Virus record (IMG/VR): IMGVR_UViG_3300020170_000003
Span: 2,267 to 66,266 of that record
Strand: one strand, 5' to 3'
Source: a virus
Length of the DNA: 64,000 bases
Shown here: positions 23,747 through 28,461 of the stretch, piece after piece
Position numbering within the stretch: the stretch's first letter is position 1
How the letters are laid out: each line of letters starts with the position of its first letter
Notes under the pieces: generated by a model
What the model was told of the DNA's origin: nothing
The model's database searches: none
Seen by the model: only the letters and a program-made list of their open reading frames with translations
Made by a program: the position numbers and the translations under genes

Positions 23747-24079
23747 ATGACAGAGAGTAAGCACACGCCAGGGCCGTGGAATCTAGAGACGGTCAAGACT
23801 TCTATTGGGGTATGTCATAAGATAGGGCCTCTAGGTGCGTCCACAAAGATCAATTCAGCCTGCCTATACGACGATTGCTATTCGGATAAGCCACGCGACT
23901 TACAACTGTTAGCCGATGCTCACCTAATCGCAGCAGCACCCGAGCTTGTCAAGGCTCTGGAGGCCATCCAGGATGAGTGCGAACATCAGGACTCTTCGGT
24001 TGACCGGGTAATTTACAGGCGCATAGGCTCTGTAGCAAAGGCCGCACTCACCGCAGCCGGGAGAATAGAAGAGAAATGA
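23747..24079 (+). CDS. Conserved phage HTPGPW-family hypothetical protein
   Basis: SKHTPGPW...ADAHLIAAAPELVKALE. Confidence 0.6.
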   Translation: MTESKHTPGPWNLETVKTSIGVCHKIGPLGASTKINSACLYDDCYSDKPRDLQLLADAHLIAAAPELVKALEAIQDECEHQDSSVDRVIYRRIGSVAKAALTAAGRIEEK

Positions 24080-24774
24080 ATCAAGAATTAACTATCCAAA
24101 ATCCCAGCGTTTTTAAACTATTGGCCGACAAGATAAAGCAGAACGTTTCTTCATTCGGAACTAAGCTAGTCAATGTTGAATCTTACAGAGATATATGTGG
24201 AATAATCGCCGGGATTGCCTCATCCAAAAACCGAGTTTCTGAGCATTACGATCCTAAGATCGCCGATGCCCGTGTGCCATACCAAAATTTACTGAATGAG
24301 CGCAAGGAAATACTAGATGCAATGGATCAAGGTCAGACTATGGCCAACCGCCTGAAGTACGATTACGAAGAAGACCAAGAGCGTGTTCGCCGTGCGGAAG
24401 AAATGCGACTTGAGGCAATTGAAAACAAACGTATTCAAGATGAGGCTAAACAATTGGCCGAAGATTTAAAGGCACAAGGTGATAAGGCTGGAGCAAAAGA
24501 AGTTTTGGCCGAAGCCAAGGTAACAACGGCAACTATTACCGTTCCATCTGCTGTCCCGTCCATAGCAGGAATGTATACAAAAAAGGCCACATGGGAATAC
24601 GAGATAATCGATGCGGGGAAAGTGAACGAATCCTATCTGCACAAGGTTCCAAATGAGGAAAAGATTGCGGAGTTGGTCAAGCGTTTGGGATTGGGTGCAG
24701 AGCAGTTAATCGGAAAAGGCTCAATCAGAATTACCAAGAAAATTCCTAAGACTGTCGTGAGGGGAGCGAGGTAA
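24076..24774 (+). CDS. Coiled-coil protein of recombination modules (Gam/Gp157-like role)
   Basis: Long charged helix plus C-terminal WEYEIID..KV.ESYL...NEEKI motif. Confidence 0.45.
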   Translation: MNQELTIQNPSVFKLLADKIKQNVSSFGTKLVNVESYRDICGIIAGIASSKNRVSEHYDPKIADARVPYQNLLNERKEILDAMDQGQTMANRLKYDYEEDQERVRRAEEMRLEAIENKRIQDEAKQLAEDLKAQGDKAGAKEVLAEAKVTTATITVPSAVPSIAGMYTKKATWEYEIIDAGKVNESYLHKVPNEEKIAELVKRLGLGAEQLIGKGSIRITKKIPKTVVRGAR

Positions 24775-25161
24775 TGAACGATCAGGAACGTACATGGTGC
24801 GCTAATGCGATTCATCGCGGCGGTAGCTTCGTACATGCTCTGGGCACTGCATGCTTACAGGCGGATGACAGCAACTTTATTATCCTTAGACCAGCCCTAA
24901 GGGAAATTATGGAAAAATATCCGAAGTATTCAGAGGAGTAATCATGCCTTGGGATGTACGAATAATCGCCAAATTCCCGCACCTTACTGATAACTCGGAT
25001 AACGCAGTAGCCATCCGTGCGCTAACTTGTAAGGCATATACGAATCACATGCCAGAGCATGATTGGGACGAAGTAAATCCAATGGTGCGAGATCACTGGT
25101 GCACGATTACTGCATCATTGCTTCAGGTTATGGGAAAGCAAAAAGTCTCGCCGTAAGACTA

Positions 25162-25191
25162 TTGACAATGTGGCATCGGGTGAAATAGTAT
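25162..25191 (+). promoter_or_regulatory. Promoter of the replication operon, immediately preceded by a 17-bp dyad
   Basis: TTGACA-18-TAGTAT; dyad at 25144-25160. Confidence 0.65.
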
Positions 25192-25197
25192 TTCTTT

Positions 25198-25291
25198 ACG
25201 GCTTCCACGCCTAAATGGGTTTCCACGGGCCAGAGCGGTCACTCTGGCTCACCCTTTTGACCGAAAGGGAACTTTTATGGATTTACAATCC
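25198..25291 (+). ncRNA. Putative structured leader RNA with complementary loops
   Basis: Hairpin 25227-25250 (9-bp stem, loop CGGUCA) and hairpin 25252-25269 (6-bp stem, loop UGACCG); flanking mini-hairpins GGC-UUCCAC-GCC and GGAUU-UAC-AAUCC. Confidence 0.5.
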
Positions 25292-25448
25292 GACGCTTAT
25301 TTTCTCGAAGAATCCCCTATAGTAAGTGATAGTAATCAGCTCATTCATAGTCCTCCTTCTATTGTTGCCCTGTAGCTTATTCCTAATAAATTGCAAGAGT
25401 TGTAAGACTTTTATTTTTTTGTTTTCAAGATAAGGACGAGTTCCCGCC

Positions 25449-26399
25449 ATGACAGACGGTATGAAGGATTCTCTTGAGCAGGTAGTGGATTTGATAGGAG
25501 ACATTCTCTCCGACAGGACAATAGCTTTCCGTAGAGACTTCGTGGAAATAGCAGGCAGCGCCGCAGGTGCTCTATTTTTATCCCAGGCAGTTTATTGGAC
25601 AGGAACTAAATTAGATGGATGGTTCTACAAAAGCCGGGATGAATGGACATCCGAAACTGGACTTACAAGGTATGAGCAGGAATCGGCTAGGGTAGCACTT
25701 AAGAAGATCGGAGTGCTGGAGGAAATAAGAAAGGGATGCCCCTTTCAGCTTCATTTTAAGATTAATGTAAAAGAGATTTATCGCATACTATCCGCTAAAT
25801 CCAGCATAAAGCATTCGGGTAATAACAGCCGTCATTCGGTTGGAAGTAACCTGATGGATGGTGGTAGTGCACCCGTCCATTCGGTTGAAAACAACCAACC
25901 CTATAAGGAAGCAGAGATTACTACAGAGAATACTTCAAAGATTACACATAAGACCATCAATGAAGATTTTTCTTTAGTAGGAGAGGAAAGTAACGGGAAA
26001 CCCAAAAAACGTACAAGGGTGTTAAATATAGAACTCCCGCCGTGGCTTCCCCTCGAAGAATGGAATGGATGGCTTGAAATGCGCATCAAGATGCGTAAGG
26101 CCGCTACCGATCTTGCTAAAAAGTATGCACTTGAAGAGTTGGATACCCTGAGAATACAGGGCGAGAATGTGCGCGAGGTAATTAGGAAGGCAATATCAAA
26201 AAACTGGCTTTCTTTTTATGCTGTGAATAACGGCTATTTCAACGGCAACGGCTCCCACAATGGCCAGCAATCGCTCACAAATGGCGCAGGAGCGACAACT
26301 AGGCTACTAGACCACCTACCGGGGCCTGAAGAGACACAGAGGCGTAGGGAAGCCGACAACAAGCGATTGGAAGAAAAAAGAATGGCAAGGGGAATATGA
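25449..26399 (+). CDS. Replication initiator (lambda O-like, N-terminal wHTH)
   Basis: AGALFLSQAVYW...WFYKS..EW..ETGLTRYEQESAR..L N-domain; LPPWLP.EEW..W..MR C-domain; upstream of DnaB. Confidence 0.75.
   Translation: MTDGMKDSLEQVVDLIGDILSDRTIAFRRDFVEIAGSAAGALFLSQAVYWTGTKLDGWFYKSRDEWTSETGLTRYEQESARVALKKIGVLEEIRKGCPFQLHFKINVKEIYRILSAKSSIKHSGNNSRHSVGSNLMDGGSAPVHSVENNQPYKEAEITTENTSKITHKTINEDFSLVGEESNGKPKKRTRVLNIELPPWLPLEEWNGWLEMRIKMRKAATDLAKKYALEELDTLRIQGENVREVIRKAISKNWLSFYAVNNGYFNGNGSHNGQQSLTNGAGATTRLLDHLPGPEETQRRREADNKRLEEKRMARGI
25812..25888 (+). repeat. Possible origin iterons inside the initiator gene
   Basis: CATTCGG at 25812, CATTCGGTTG at 25833 and 25878, in the low-complexity linker. 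Confidence 0.3.
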
Positions 26400-27106
26400 C
26401 ACTAGAACAGCTCACAAAATTCTGTAATGGCCATCAAGGAATCACAAAAGAACCATTTGGTATCGACAAGTGGCGAGTAGCAACGGATGGCGTCGTGCTG
26501 ATTGCCGAAAATGGATTAAGCCCGATTAAACTGCCCGAACTTGAGGCATGCAACAACCGAGATTATATCCTGAAAATGCTTTCTGTTGAAATTCCAGATC
26601 AACTCTATTCCTTCGAGCATTTGAATGGATTTCTTAGCGGGGAAGAAACTGAGTTAGTTCACCCGGTATTTTTCAATGGCCATGCCATAGATAAATCCAG
26701 ACTGCGTAAAGTGTTTTCTGTCTGCATAGAGCGATACCGCTTTGCGGTGAGCAATCAAGGCTGCTATCATTGCTTCCATTTTTCATTTGGCAAAGTAACC
26801 GCGCTTGTCATGGGAATGAGGGACATTGTTAGTGCGATACGTTACGAGCCAATCAAGTATCCACTAGTCTCACAGTAAGACTTTATGGCTGAATTTCCCA
26901 AAACTTCCGAGGCTCTGTACACGGCTGGATATCGTTTCAAAAATAACAGCTATTGCAATAGCAGGGAATGTGCGGCTGAAATTCAGTGGTGGACAACGCC
27001 AGCGGGTAAAAGTATTCCGCTAGATCACGGAACGTTAGAACCTCATTGGGTCACATGTCGAGATGTAAAGAGATTTAGAAAGCAAGTCTTACCGCAAGAC
27101 AAATGA
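26396..27106 (+). other. Two hypothetical CDS (26396..26878; 26885..27106, Zn-finger-like)
   Basis: Second has C..REC.AEIQWW.T..GK.IPLD...HW.TC pattern. Confidence 0.5.
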
Positions 27107-28461
27107 AAAACGGAACCAAGAGAGCGCCCTCAAAATCCGATTACGAACTAGGCCCACAGTTGCCGCATAGCTTAGACGCGGAAAGGGCCATACTGGGAGC
27201 AGTAATCCTTAAAAATGAGTGCTGGTTCCAAGCTGAAATCATGTCATATCTGGATTTTTATTTACACGCTAACCAGATAGTTTATCTGCGGATGGCGGAA
27301 GTGATTAGCAGTGGCAAGCCGGTAGACTTCATAACTCTTGGAGAGTGTATTTCGTCGCATAAAGAACTAGCGGAAATCGGCGGCGACAATTATTTGATGT
27401 CCCTGACCGATGGACTTCCAAGAGTAGGCAACATTGAGCAGTATGTAAATATCGTTAAAGACAAAGCGGCACTACGTAGGCTGATAAGCGTTTCGCAAAC
27501 CGCAATCCAATCAGCTTACGATCAGGCGCAGCCAGCAGAAGAAATAATGGCCGAAGCAGATCGCGCTATATGTGAAATTCAGGGGCACGGTAAGAGTAAG
27601 CCTAGCCACGCTTCCGAGATAGCAATAGAAATCAAGCAAGAATTTACGAGGGTAAGAAGCATTGATCCATCCAATGCGGCCATCGGGTTATCGGCGGGGT
27701 TAGCCGGACTGGACAAAGAAATACTTGGATACCATAAAGGCGAGATGGTACTGATAGCGGGGGAAACCAGTAGCGGTAAGTCCACGCTTATGCGTCAAGG
27801 CGTGCTCAGTAACATATTGCTGAAAATTCCTACGCTCATCTTTAGTTTTGAAGTCAAGCGCAGGCAGCTCATTACGAATTTGTTAAGCCCCATATCGAAT
27901 ATCAGCGGAATGAAGCTGAGGGATTTTCGTGAGTTGGACGATCAGGCCCATGTTTTAGGTAAGAAATCCGAAGTTGAAACATTTTTTTCTTACCTTGCAG
28001 ACACGGCAATTTGGCCTCTATGGATCGAAGACGATGTGAGGAATAGCCACATCTCGAAAATATGTTCCATAGCTCGAATGATGATACGCAAGCATGGAAT
28101 TGAAAGCGTGTGGCTGGATCAGGCGAGTCTTGCGCGGGGAACGGGCGATTCAGAAACGGAAAGATATGAAGATATTTCCAAGGGCATGGTCGGGCTAGCA
28201 CGGTCGGAAAATGTACAGGTAGGGGTATTGTCACAGCTGACATCCGACAAAGAGCGGCAATCGTTAAAACGGCCACCTCGTACAGGCGACGTTAAATGGG
28301 CAAAGAGACTTGAAGAAGATTCAGCTACGGAGATATTTCCATGGAAAGACGAAAACGGAAATCGCTGGTTAATAATCGGGAAGCAGAGAAATGGGCCGCT
28401 CAGTAAAATTCCGGTAACGCTGGACAGGGCAATATTATTGTTCGAGGATGGGCATAAATGA
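27103..28461 (+). CDS. dnaB: Replicative DNA helicase, DnaB family
   Basis: DnaB NTD; Walker A AGETSSGKST; FSFE; LSQL; KQRNGP arginine finger; Walker B region divergent (WLDQASL). Confidence 0.9.
   Translation: MKNGTKRAPSKSDYELGPQLPHSLDAERAILGAVILKNECWFQAEIMSYLDFYLHANQIVYLRMAEVISSGKPVDFITLGECISSHKELAEIGGDNYLMSLTDGLPRVGNIEQYVNIVKDKAALRRLISVSQTAIQSAYDQAQPAEEIMAEADRAICEIQGHGKSKPSHASEIAIEIKQEFTRVRSIDPSNAAIGLSAGLAGLDKEILGYHKGEMVLIAGETSSGKSTLMRQGVLSNILLKIPTLIFSFEVKRRQLITNLLSPISNISGMKLRDFRELDDQAHVLGKKSEVETFFSYLADTAIWPLWIEDDVRNSHISKICSIARMMIRKHGIESVWLDQASLARGTGDSETERYEDISKGMVGLARSENVQVGVLSQLTSDKERQSLKRPPRTGDVKWAKRLEEDSATEIFPWKDENGNRWLIIGKQRNGPLSKIPVTLDRAILLFEDGHK

What the first reader, a model, noticed from the sequence alone, without database searches (positions are those of the whole stretch)
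25144..25550. Leader RNA with perfectly complementary hairpin loops (CGGUCA / UGACCG) upstream of the replication initiator
Seen: after the 25162 promoter, two adjacent hairpins (25227-25250, 25252-25269) have 6-nt loops that are exact reverse complements. GUUUCC (25219-24) can alternatively pair with GGGAAC (25267-72), which would open hairpin 2. UUCCACG occurs twice in the leader, and its complement CGTGGAAA lies at 25541 inside the initiator CDS. A 32-codon uORF follows. Known analogues: P4 CI and P1 C4 immunity RNAs, and the loop-loop oligomerisation of phi29 pRNA. Inference: a kissing-loop/pseudoknot switch or small RNA controlling replication-gene expression.
Basis: partly seen in the sequence, partly recalled or inferred. 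Interest (0 to 1): 0.7.

Follow-up and report, generated by a model that had tools for sequence, protein, structure and literature searches.

The report
Phage replication leader RNA switch
The mRNA leader in front of this soil phage's DNA-replication genes folds into two hairpins whose six-base loops have stayed exact complements through at least three paired mutations in ten related phages, so it is very likely a new RNA switch setting how much replication initiator is made.

Summary
A consensus promoter (25162-25191) is followed by hairpin 1 (25227-25250, loop CGGUCA) and hairpin 2 (25252-25269, loop UGACCG).

I found nine more distinct versions of this leader in metagenomic phage contigs. 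All ten keep six Watson-Crick pairs between the two loops. The loops come in four different sequences (CGGUCA, CGGACA, CGGCAA, CGGUAA), each matched by its complement, which needs at least three compensatory double changes. Both stems also covary, with G-U pairs only on the + strand, so this is RNA.

Hairpin 2 buries the Shine-Dalgarno of a conserved 20-66 codon leader ORF. In most relatives that ORF ends on the initiator's ATG (ATGA), though not in this window.

The hairpins are only 1-5 nt apart, so the loops cannot kiss in cis with both stems intact. The best reading is a bistable double-hairpin/pseudoknot translational switch, like the E. coli rpsO operator or the IncI/IncB repZ leaders. 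The main rival is kissing in trans, as a dimer or a processed RNA.

There is no Rfam match, no conserved antisense promoter and no expression data. I class it as a new variant of a known kind.

The parts
25144..25160 (.). 17-bp dyad AGTCTC-N5-GTAAGACT abutting the -35. It is one copy of a genome-wide repeat and is probably an operator or other protein site.
   Evidence: Exact match, which found 45 strand-matches at about 30 sites against 0.29 expected. It sits in the same position next to the -35 in L002, L005, L056 and L004, but is replaced by another element in L006, L059 and L088.
25162..25191 (+). Sigma-70-type promoter: TTGACA, 18 nt, TAGTAT. The predicted start is the A at about 25198.
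   Evidence: 10 of 12. A promoter at the same distance (-54/-55 from GGGUUUC) is present in seven of the eight leaders scanned and read by eye in L055 (19-nt spacer) and L088. An A lies 7 nt after the -10 in all eight leaders scanned (sequences). The start site is inferred, not measured.
25200..25211 (+). 5'-terminal mini-hairpin GGC-UUCCAC-GCC (hp0), with CCA(C) in the loop.
   Evidence: GGC and GCC are invariant in all 12 rows. There is no covariation, so the pairing is unproven.
25217..25226 (+). Conserved single-stranded block GGGUUUCYAC immediately 5' of hairpin 1.
   Evidence: Nearly invariant in 12 rows. Its role is unknown.
25227..25250 (+). Hairpin 1: a 9-bp stem with the 6-nt loop L1, CGGUCA (25236-25241).
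   Evidence: dG -14.7 kcal/mol. 99% of cells paired. Four pairs changed on both sides. G-U and U-G pairs occur only when read on the + strand.
25252..25269 (+). Hairpin 2: a 6-bp stem with the 6-nt loop L2, UGACCG (25258-25263). Its 3' arm AAAGGG carries the Shine-Dalgarno.
   Evidence: dG -5.3 to -6.5 kcal/mol. Pair 68-77 is UA in 8 rows and CG in 4; pair 63-78 is CG in 10 and UA in 1. L005 has CUC/GAG in place of CCC/GGG.
25236..25263 (+). Loop-loop helix L1:L2: six Watson-Crick pairs between 25236-25241 and 25258-25263. It would form as pseudoknot stem 2 in cis, or as a kissing helix in trans.
   Evidence: 6 of 6 Watson-Crick pairs in all 12 leaders, with four loop sequences. Pair 47-72 is UA in 6, AU in 3, CG in 3. 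Pair 48-71 is AU in 7, CG in 5. No one-sided changes.
25277..25375 (+). Leader ORF of 32 codons. The GGGA of its ribosome-binding site lies 6 nt before the ATG.
   Evidence: The peptide is conserved (M-x-x-K/Q-S-D-A/S ... I/V-I/V-E/D/Q ... L) with synonymous differences between relatives.
25376..25448 (+). 73-nt spacer specific to the window/L002/L006/L064 clade. It contains a half-dyad GTAAGACT and a T-run. In this clade it separates the leader ORF from the initiator.
   Evidence: In the other relatives this spacer is absent and the ORF stop overlaps the initiator ATG.
25449..26399 (+). Replication initiator, O-like.
   Evidence: phrog_9773 'replication initiation O-like', E = 8e-34. A DnaB helicase lies at 27103-28461.

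Best explanation
This is a cis-acting translational switch in the 5' leader of the phage's replication operon.

The transcript starts about 30 nt before hairpin 1. Hairpin 1 is stable and always present. Hairpin 2 is weak and hides the Shine-Dalgarno of a conserved leader ORF, which is the OFF state. Alternatively, the loop of hairpin 1 pairs with the six bases that form the loop of hairpin 2. That makes an H-type pseudoknot in which hairpin 2 is open and the Shine-Dalgarno is free, which is the ON state.

L2 is transcribed before the 3' arm of hairpin 2, so the pseudoknot can form first on the nascent RNA.

Ribosomes that translate the leader ORF then deliver expression to the initiator by termination-reinitiation. 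In most relatives the stop overlaps the initiator ATG. In this window a 73-nt spacer separates them, so any link here would be indirect.

Shown: the three helices, their covariation, the position of the Shine-Dalgarno, and the ORF overlaps.
Inferred: that the two folds alternate, which fold is ON, and what shifts the balance (a protein, an RNA, temperature or folding kinetics).
For: (1) L1:L2 is 6 of 6 Watson-Crick in 12 leaders with four loop sequences. That requires at least three double substitutions on any tree.

(2) Hairpin 1 and hairpin 2 each covary too. Hairpin 1 has G-U pairs on the + strand only, so the structure is RNA.

(3) The linker between the hairpins is 1-5 nt and the loops are exactly 6 nt, with covarying closing pairs. 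A coaxial kissing stack of about 19-22 bp cannot be closed in cis. This is a geometric inference. Hairpin 2 and L1:L2 therefore exclude each other within one molecule.

(4) A crude energy estimate puts the double hairpin and the pseudoknot within about 2 kcal/mol of each other in all eight leaders computed.

(5) The 3' arm of hairpin 2 is the purine-rich ribosome-binding site, 4-6 nt before the ATG, in every leader.

(6) The leader ORF is conserved as a peptide. Its stop overlaps the initiator ATG as ATGA in L005, L089, L059 and L056, and as ATGACTGA in L004. It overlaps out of frame in L088 and is in frame in L055.

(7) The leader precedes initiators with three different N-terminal domains. 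It therefore belongs to the promoter and leader module, not to one initiator.

(8) Precedent: the E. coli rpsO operator alternates between a double hairpin and a pseudoknot made by the hairpin-1 loop (PMC3985624). IncI1/IncB repZ needs a leader peptide plus a pseudoknot (PMC8053102).
Against: - There is no experimental or expression data; no RNA run was listed.
- Covariation in both hairpin 2 and L1:L2 is equally explained if both exist at once in a trans dimer.
- No effector is identified.
- In the window's own clade the leader ORF is not coupled to the initiator because of the 73-nt spacer, so control of the initiator here is less direct.
- The pseudoknot energy uses a penalty recalled from memory. 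All six loop bases would pair with no connecting nucleotides, which is unusual for an H-type pseudoknot.
- The strongly conserved GGGUUUCYAC block and hp0 have no role in this model.
- The family is small: 10 distinct leaders and four loop states.
Confidence: 0.5

Rival explanations
1. Kissing in trans. Both hairpins stay folded, and L1 of one RNA kisses L2 of another. The kiss stacks on hairpin 2 and locks the Shine-Dalgarno away. Initiator synthesis would then fall as leader RNA, and so genome copies, accumulate. The two variable loop positions would set specificity between related phages, as in P1/P7 C4 or plasmid incompatibility.
For: Hairpin 2 and L1:L2 both covary, and they can coexist only in trans. 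The loops are exactly 6 nt and fully complementary, which from my own knowledge is the geometry of TAR-TAR*-type kissing complexes. A closed two-fold dimer is geometrically possible with 1-5 nt linkers (inference). Variation is confined to the two central loop positions, and close relatives such as the window and L002 share an identical hairpin-1 stem but differ in the loops. Leader-derived RNAs that pair with the same operon's transcript are known: P4 CI (PMC4825925) and P1 c4 (PMC8546580).
Against: No bacterial or phage mRNA leader is known to regulate itself by sense-sense dimerisation. An intramolecular pseudoknot does not depend on concentration and should compete. There is no evidence of processing or of a short transcript: hairpin 2 has no conserved U-tract after it. 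No second copy of either loop hairpin exists in the genome. No integrase was found, so an immunity role is not obviously needed.
Confidence: 0.2
2. A constitutive structured 5' end. The pseudoknot or hairpins only protect the mRNA from 5'-end-dependent decay, or act as a fixed translational enhancer or standby site, with no regulated switching.
For: The structure starts within a few nucleotides of the predicted 5' end. Hairpin 1 is very stable. No effector was found.
Against: A protective hairpin needs neither a Shine-Dalgarno-sequestering hairpin 2 with its own covariation nor a loop complement kept through three double changes. The near-equal energies of the two folds in all variants suggest that bistability is selected.
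Confidence: 0.1
3. A transcription-level element. The folded leader would act on RNA polymerase, as a put-like processive antiterminator or a nut-like site, so that transcription reads through the many intergenic dyad hairpins of this one-strand genome.
For: It lies directly after a strong promoter at the head of a long co-directional gene block. A conserved single-stranded block precedes hairpin 1, like boxA before boxB. About 30 dyad hairpins lie at gene ends.
Against: Hairpin 2's 3' arm is the ribosome-binding site of an ORF that starts 8-10 nt later in every relative, which points to translation. No loop-loop pairing is known in put or nut. There is no sequence likeness to boxA or boxB (by eye) and no Rfam hit.
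Confidence: 0.07
4. A DNA-level signal. The complementary hexamers would be half-sites of a dimeric DNA-binding protein, or part of a cruciform or origin.
For: L1:L2 contains only Watson-Crick pairs, so on its own it cannot tell RNA from DNA. An operator-like dyad lies next to the promoter.
Against: The gap between the hexamers varies from 15 to 20 bp, which does not fit a rigid dimer. The stems that present them use G-U pairs valid only in + strand RNA. The hexamers are exactly the loops of those RNA hairpins.
Confidence: 0.03

Closest known systems
E. coli rpsO (ribosomal protein S15) translational operator
   Same: It has a stable hairpin 1 plus a weak hairpin 2 just before the start codon. 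The hairpin-1 loop pairs with downstream sequence to make a pseudoknot that excludes hairpin 2. The two folds interconvert, and hairpin-hairpin contact helps the change (PMC3985624).
   Different: There is no sequence likeness and no Rfam S15 hit. Here the loop's partner is exactly the loop of hairpin 2 and is a perfect 6-mer. The effector, S15 in rpsO, is unknown here. The gene controlled is a leader ORF of a phage replication operon. In rpsO the pseudoknot is the repressed, protein-bound form; here I infer it is the open form.
IncI1 (ColIb-P9) / IncB (pMU720) repY-repZ and repB-repA control
   Same: It controls a replication initiator. A short leader ORF has its end overlapping the initiator start. 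A hairpin loop pairs with a sequence next to a ribosome-binding site held in another hairpin, and that pseudoknot is needed for expression (PMC8053102 and its references 49-51).
   Different: In the plasmids the pseudoknot activates the initiator's own start and is opened by ribosomes ending the leader ORF. Here it sits before the leader ORF's start. The plasmids have a constitutive antisense RNA that competes for the loop. I found no conserved antisense promoter here. This is a phage, not a plasmid, and there is no Rfam hit.
P1/P7 C4 RNA and P4 CI RNA (leader-derived immunity RNAs)
   Same: An RNA element encoded in the leader of an operon is complementary to sequences further along the same transcript. 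In P1 the target covers the start of a small ORF on which the downstream gene depends, which I state from my own knowledge. In P4 the controlled genes are replication genes (PMC4825925; PMC8546580).
   Different: Those RNAs are processed, act in trans and, in P4, cause termination. None of this is shown here. There is no match to Rfam C4. No integrase was found.
phi29 pRNA and retroviral dimer-initiation hairpins (loop-loop oligomerisation)
   Different: pRNA is a packaging-motor RNA with two 4-nt interlocking loops and a different fold and location. The element here is an mRNA leader abutting a ribosome-binding site. Oligomerisation is untested.

Membership tests
Any Rfam 15 family (including S15 leader, C4 antisense RNA, the plasmid rep pseudoknots, riboswitches and small ribozymes) | A score at or near the family's covariance-model threshold | tested here: not met
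   cmscan of window 24000-27000 on both strands at E up to 10 gave only a chance CRISPR-DR41 hit in the CDS: 17.7 bits against a gathering score of 36.
Double-hairpin/pseudoknot translational operator (rpsO type; a mechanism class, not a homology family) | The hairpin-1 loop is complementary to downstream sequence that is part of hairpin 2, with both helices conserved | tested here: met
   L1:L2 100% paired with two covarying pairs; hairpin 2 pairs covary.
Double-hairpin/pseudoknot translational operator (rpsO type) | The ribosome-binding site lies within or next to the switching helices | tested here: met
   The Shine-Dalgarno is the 3' arm of hairpin 2, 4-6 nt before the ATG, in all leaders.
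Double-hairpin/pseudoknot translational operator (rpsO type) | The two folds actually interconvert and a factor selects one of them | not testable with these tools
   Only a crude energy estimate is available, with the two folds within about 2 kcal/mol.
Leader-peptide-coupled replication-initiator control (IncI1/IncB/R1 type) | A short ORF whose stop overlaps or abuts the initiator start codon | tested here: inconclusive
   Met in L005, L089, L059, L056 (ATGA), L004 (ATGACTGA) and L088 (overlap). L055 is in frame. Not met in the window, L002, L006 or L064, which have a spacer of about 70 nt.
Leader-peptide-coupled replication-initiator control (IncI1/IncB/R1 type) | A constitutive antisense RNA transcribed from the opposite strand of the leader | tested here: not met
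   There is no minus-strand promoter at 9 of 12 or better in the window. Only weak 8-of-12 matches were found, at inconsistent positions, in the 8 leaders scanned. A consensus scan cannot exclude an unusual promoter.
P1 C4 / P4 CI immunity RNA | A processed stable small RNA acting in trans | not testable with these tools
   No RNA run was listed. The Rfam C4 model gave no match.
HK022 put-type antiterminator RNA | Two hairpins that make RNA polymerase terminator-resistant in cis | not testable with these tools
   Only the two-hairpin layout is shared. The overlap with the ribosome-binding site argues for a translational role.

The most novel reading that the evidence does not exclude
The leader is a self-recognising RNA. 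This locks the Shine-Dalgarno hairpin and shuts off the leader ORF and initiator as transcripts accumulate. It would be a sense-sense, antisense-free copy-number sensor. Its two variable loop bases would define 'incompatibility' or heteroimmunity types among related phages.
Probability: 0.17. Interest if true: 0.85.

Novelty: new variant of a known kind. Interest (0 to 1): 0.62.

Why it matters
Hairpin/pseudoknot switches and leader-peptide coupling are textbook for ribosomal-protein operons and for plasmid copy-number control. A phage replication module using such a design, apparently without an antisense RNA, has not been described as far as I could check, and it has no Rfam family.

The element is small (about 80 nt), has a clean and already covariation-supported architecture, and makes sharp predictions that can be tested with single and compensatory mutants.

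If the pairing turns out to act between molecules, it would be a new way for a replicon to count itself and to tell self from close relatives.

It also gives annotators a marker, in the form of a covariance model, for the start of the replication operon in this group of uncultured soil phages.

Tried and rejected
- **Sequence and genome searches**
  - BLASTN of 24900-25700 against 50,697 phage records found no match.
  - The search for related loci with the initiator alone found nothing.
  - A pattern scan of genome contigs gave eight chance hits in GC-rich genomes and no prophage copy, so the host is unknown.
  - Most hits of the 16-base viral pattern were an unrelated coding family.
  - Extra viral scans with hairpin-1 patterns gave only unrelated terminator-like hairpins (L095, L098) or known loci.
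- **Relatives without the leader**
  - L086/L008, a relative sharing the upstream 233-aa gene, has a different long regulatory region there.
  - The more distant initiator homologues L054, L057, L103 and L110 also lack it.
- **Expression data**
  - For sequencing runs, none was listed and no RNA holder was listed.
- **Alignment problems**
  - MAFFT and the first covariance-model alignment mis-registered L2 in the L002 group.
  - I solved this with a second model built on the loop-loop helix, and checked it against a direct parse that does not use an alignment.
- **Ideas considered and dropped**
  - An upstream ORF from ATG 25215 crossing the hairpins: that ATG is absent in L002, L055, L056 and L059.
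  - Hairpin 2 as a terminator (flagged): the U-run is not conserved.
  - Cis kissing with both stems intact: the linker is too short.
  - An alternative nested hairpin made of L1:L2 alone: much weaker than the two hairpins.
  - Loop type following initiator N-domain type: no correlation.
Full report
**What is in the window**

The window is almost all of a 66.6-kb IMG/VR virus record with nearly every gene on the + strand.

- At 25162-25191 there is a near-consensus sigma-70 promoter: TTGACA, 18 nt, TAGTAT.
  - Hairpin 1 is 25227-25250, with a 9-bp stem and loop CGGUCA.
  - Hairpin 2 is 25252-25269, with a 6-bp stem and loop UGACCG.
  - The loops are exact reverse complements. No other hairpin in the 64 kb, or in the whole record, carries either loop.
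- A 32-codon ORF starts at 25277.
- The next large genes are an O-like replication initiator (25449-26399, phrog_9773, E = 8e-34) and a DnaB helicase (27103-28461).
- Nothing in Rfam 15 matches the region at E up to 10.
- The whole 266-nt leader is not more stable than shuffles (z = -0.29), so any signal is local.

**Relatives**

The phage BLAST collection holds nothing similar. Homologues of the initiator in the large protein collection led to contigs that carry the same leader: L002/L003, L004, L005, L055 and L056.

Pattern scans of viral and metagenome contigs added L006 (five copies), L059 and L064. A covariance model built from these (R1) then found two more that the pattern had missed, L088 and L089.

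That gives 10 distinct leaders plus two near-copies, all from uncultured, mostly soil or rhizosphere, phage contigs. More distant initiator homologues lack the leader. A scan of 185,579 prokaryote genomes gave only chance hits, so the host is unknown.

**Covariation**

In every leader the hairpin-1 loop has the form CGGNNA and the hairpin-2 loop is its exact complement:

| Leaders | L1 | L2 |
|---|---|---|
| window, L006 | CGGUCA | UGACCG |
| L002 group | CGGACA | UGUCCG |
| L004, L056, L088 | CGGCAA | UUGCCG |
| L005, L055, L059, L089 | CGGUAA | UUACCG |

The helices were counted on a structure-aware alignment (A8); results are.

- **Loop-loop helix:** 100% paired. Pair 47-72 is UA in 6 rows, AU in 3 and CG in 3. 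Pair 48-71 is AU in 7 and CG in 5. No one-sided changes occur. Three states at one pair and two at the other require at least three double substitutions on any tree.
- **Hairpin 1:** 99% paired, with four pairs changed on both sides. It has G-U and U-G pairs that are valid only for + strand RNA.
- **Hairpin 2:** pair 68-77 is UA in 8 and CG in 4. L005 has CUC/GAG where the others have CCC/GGG.
- **Control:** sliding the 3' partners by 1-3 columns drops pairing to 32-51%.

One caveat is that A8 was fitted to the loop-loop helix. The alignment-free parse gives the same answer, and L2 is defined independently as the loop of hairpin 2.

The distance between the hexamers varies from 15 to 20 nt. 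That variation, together with the G-U pairs, argues against a DNA dyad.

**Why the two loops cannot simply kiss in cis**

The hairpins are separated by 1-5 nt. The loops are exactly six bases, and their closing pairs are conserved or covarying.

A fully paired 6-nt/6-nt kissing complex stacks the two stems on either side of the loop helix. The stem ends would then be about 50-60 Å apart, too far for such a linker. This is inference from A-form geometry and from my knowledge of TAR-TAR*-type complexes; I did not model it.

Within one molecule, therefore, hairpin 2 and L1:L2 exclude each other. Since both are supported by covariation, there are two possibilities. Either they alternate, as a double hairpin and an H-type pseudoknot. 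Or they coexist between molecules.

A crude energy sum puts the two cis folds within about 2 kcal/mol in all eight leaders computed. It uses nearest-neighbour stacks and a pseudoknot penalty of 9.6 kcal/mol recalled from the Dirks-Pierce model. The component energies are:

| Helix | dG (kcal/mol) |
|---|---|
| Hairpin 1 | -14.7 to -18.1 |
| Hairpin 2 | -3.8 to -6.5 |
| L1:L2 duplex | -5.6 to -7.8 |

**What it controls**

The 3' arm of hairpin 2 (AAAGGG, AAGGG, AGGG or GAAGAG) is the purine-rich ribosome-binding site of the small ORF, 4-6 nt before its ATG, in all leaders.

The ORF is a real conserved coding frame. Its peptides share M-x-x-K/Q-S-D-A/S, a hydrophobic I/V-I/V-E/D/Q stretch and, in the longer forms, F-V-H-C/Y-P-K-G-C. 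There are synonymous differences between L002 and L004.

Its relation to the initiator start varies:

- In L005, L089, L059 and L056 its stop overlaps the initiator ATG as ATGA.
- In L004 the overlap is ATGACTGA.
- In L088 it overlaps out of frame.
- In L055 it is in frame with the initiator.
- In the window's own clade (window, L002, L006, L064) the ORF is shorter, and a spacer of about 70 nt with a T-run intervenes. Coupling is therefore not evident in this particular phage.

The initiators behind the leader have three unrelated N-terminal domains, and loop type does not follow initiator type. The leader is therefore a module of its own, not the binding site of one initiator's DNA-binding domain.

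**Most likely mechanism (confidence about 0.5)**

The best reading is a bistable translational switch. The double hairpin hides the Shine-Dalgarno. The pseudoknot, made of the hairpin-1 stem plus L1:L2, frees it.

L2 leaves the polymerase before the 3' arm of hairpin 2, so the open form can arise first on nascent RNA. Translation of the leader ORF then feeds the initiator by reinitiation in the coupled relatives.

What tips the balance is unknown. No conserved antisense promoter exists. The near-invariant GGGUUUCYAC block and the 5' mini-hairpin have no assigned role and may be a protein site.

**Rivals**

- **Trans kissing (about 0.2).** It would explain why both hairpin 2 and L1:L2 are conserved, and why only the two central loop bases vary between close relatives. 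There is no precedent for it in mRNA leaders and no sign of processing. I found no tyrosine integrase.
- **A merely protective or enhancing 5' structure (about 0.1).**
- **A put- or nut-like transcription element (about 0.07).**
- **A DNA-level site (about 0.03).**

- GUUUCC/GGGAAC can pair in 8 of 10 distinct leaders. It does so mostly through G-U, fails in L059 and L089, and shows no two-sided change. I rate it inconclusive.
- The UUCCACG duplication is not conserved.
- CGTGGAAA at 25541 encodes F-V-E-I and is lost in L005. It cannot exist in relatives with other initiator N-domains, although GGGUUUCYAC stays conserved there. CGTGGAA occurs 13 times in the window. I reject it as a partner.

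**Comparison with known systems**

- **By mechanism,** the closest is the E. coli rpsO operator, where a double hairpin alternates with a pseudoknot made by the hairpin-1 loop (PMC3985624).
- **By biology,** the closest are the IncI1/IncB repZ leaders, which combine a leader peptide with a loop-to-RBS pseudoknot but also have an antisense RNA (PMC8053102).
- **P4 CI and P1 c4** are leader-derived RNAs that pair with their own operon's transcript (PMC4825925; PMC8546580).

This element is a member of none of these by sequence or model. It differs from each in at least one defining feature: no antisense RNA, a target that is the loop of the Shine-Dalgarno hairpin, and a phage replication operon as context. 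I file it as a new variant of a known kind.

**Limits**

- The family is small, with only four loop states.
- There is no host, no transcript data (none listed) and no experiment.
- The steric and energetic arguments are estimates.

Noticed in passing
window, about 30 sites, for example 4284, 5895, 13745, 21948, 25144, 26866, 32333, 36371, 49368, 52757 (minus strand), 57831, 59995: The 17-bp dyad AGTCTY-N5-GTRAGACT occurs 45 times as strand-matches with up to 2 mismatches, against 0.29 expected. Most copies lie right at gene ends or next to a -35. One copy abuts the leader's promoter, and the same arrangement is kept in L002, L004, L005 and L056. It could be an operator for a phage regulator, an RNA hairpin at cistron boundaries, or both.
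   Followed up: partly
window 25449-26399; L004, L055, L056, L059, L088 initiators (alignment A1): Initiators downstream of the same leader share a C-terminal domain (NGNG...HLLDHLP) but carry three unrelated N-terminal domains. This suggests modular swapping of the origin-recognition part while the promoter and leader stay the same.
   Followed up: partly
window 25277-25375 and relatives (alignment A7): The leader ORF encodes a conserved micro-peptide (M-x-x-K/Q-S-D-A/S ... I-V-E-R-I-Q-L-G-P-P-F type). The conservation is more than a pure coupling device would need. In L004 it is 66 codons long with a Cys-rich middle.
   Followed up: partly
window 25376-25448; L002 3925-4000; L006 and L064 equivalents: A clade-specific conserved spacer lies between the leader ORF and the initiator. 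It contains a half-dyad GTAAGACT followed by a T-run and CAAGATAAGGAC. In L006 a further 10-codon mini-ORF overlaps the next start by ATGA.
   Followed up: no
L005 and L056 just before the initiator ATG; also L004, L055, L088, L089: The initiator's own ribosome-binding region, (U)CCGAAAGGAU, is conserved at the nucleotide level. It resembles the CCGAAAGGGA of hairpin 2 in the window, which may reflect a duplicated ribosome-binding-site context.
   Followed up: no
L086 5730-6290 (IMGVR_UViG_3300036855_000005): A relative that shares the upstream 233-aa gene and the dyad-plus-TTGACA promoter has a different non-coding region of about 550 bp instead of the leader. It contains several TTGAC repeats and a GGCCAGAG...CTCTGGCC hairpin.
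   Followed up: no
L003 3805-3870: This is a near-copy of the L002 leader from another sample. It has one mismatch in each hairpin stem but intact complementary loops. It could be a natural variant or an assembly error.
   Followed up: no
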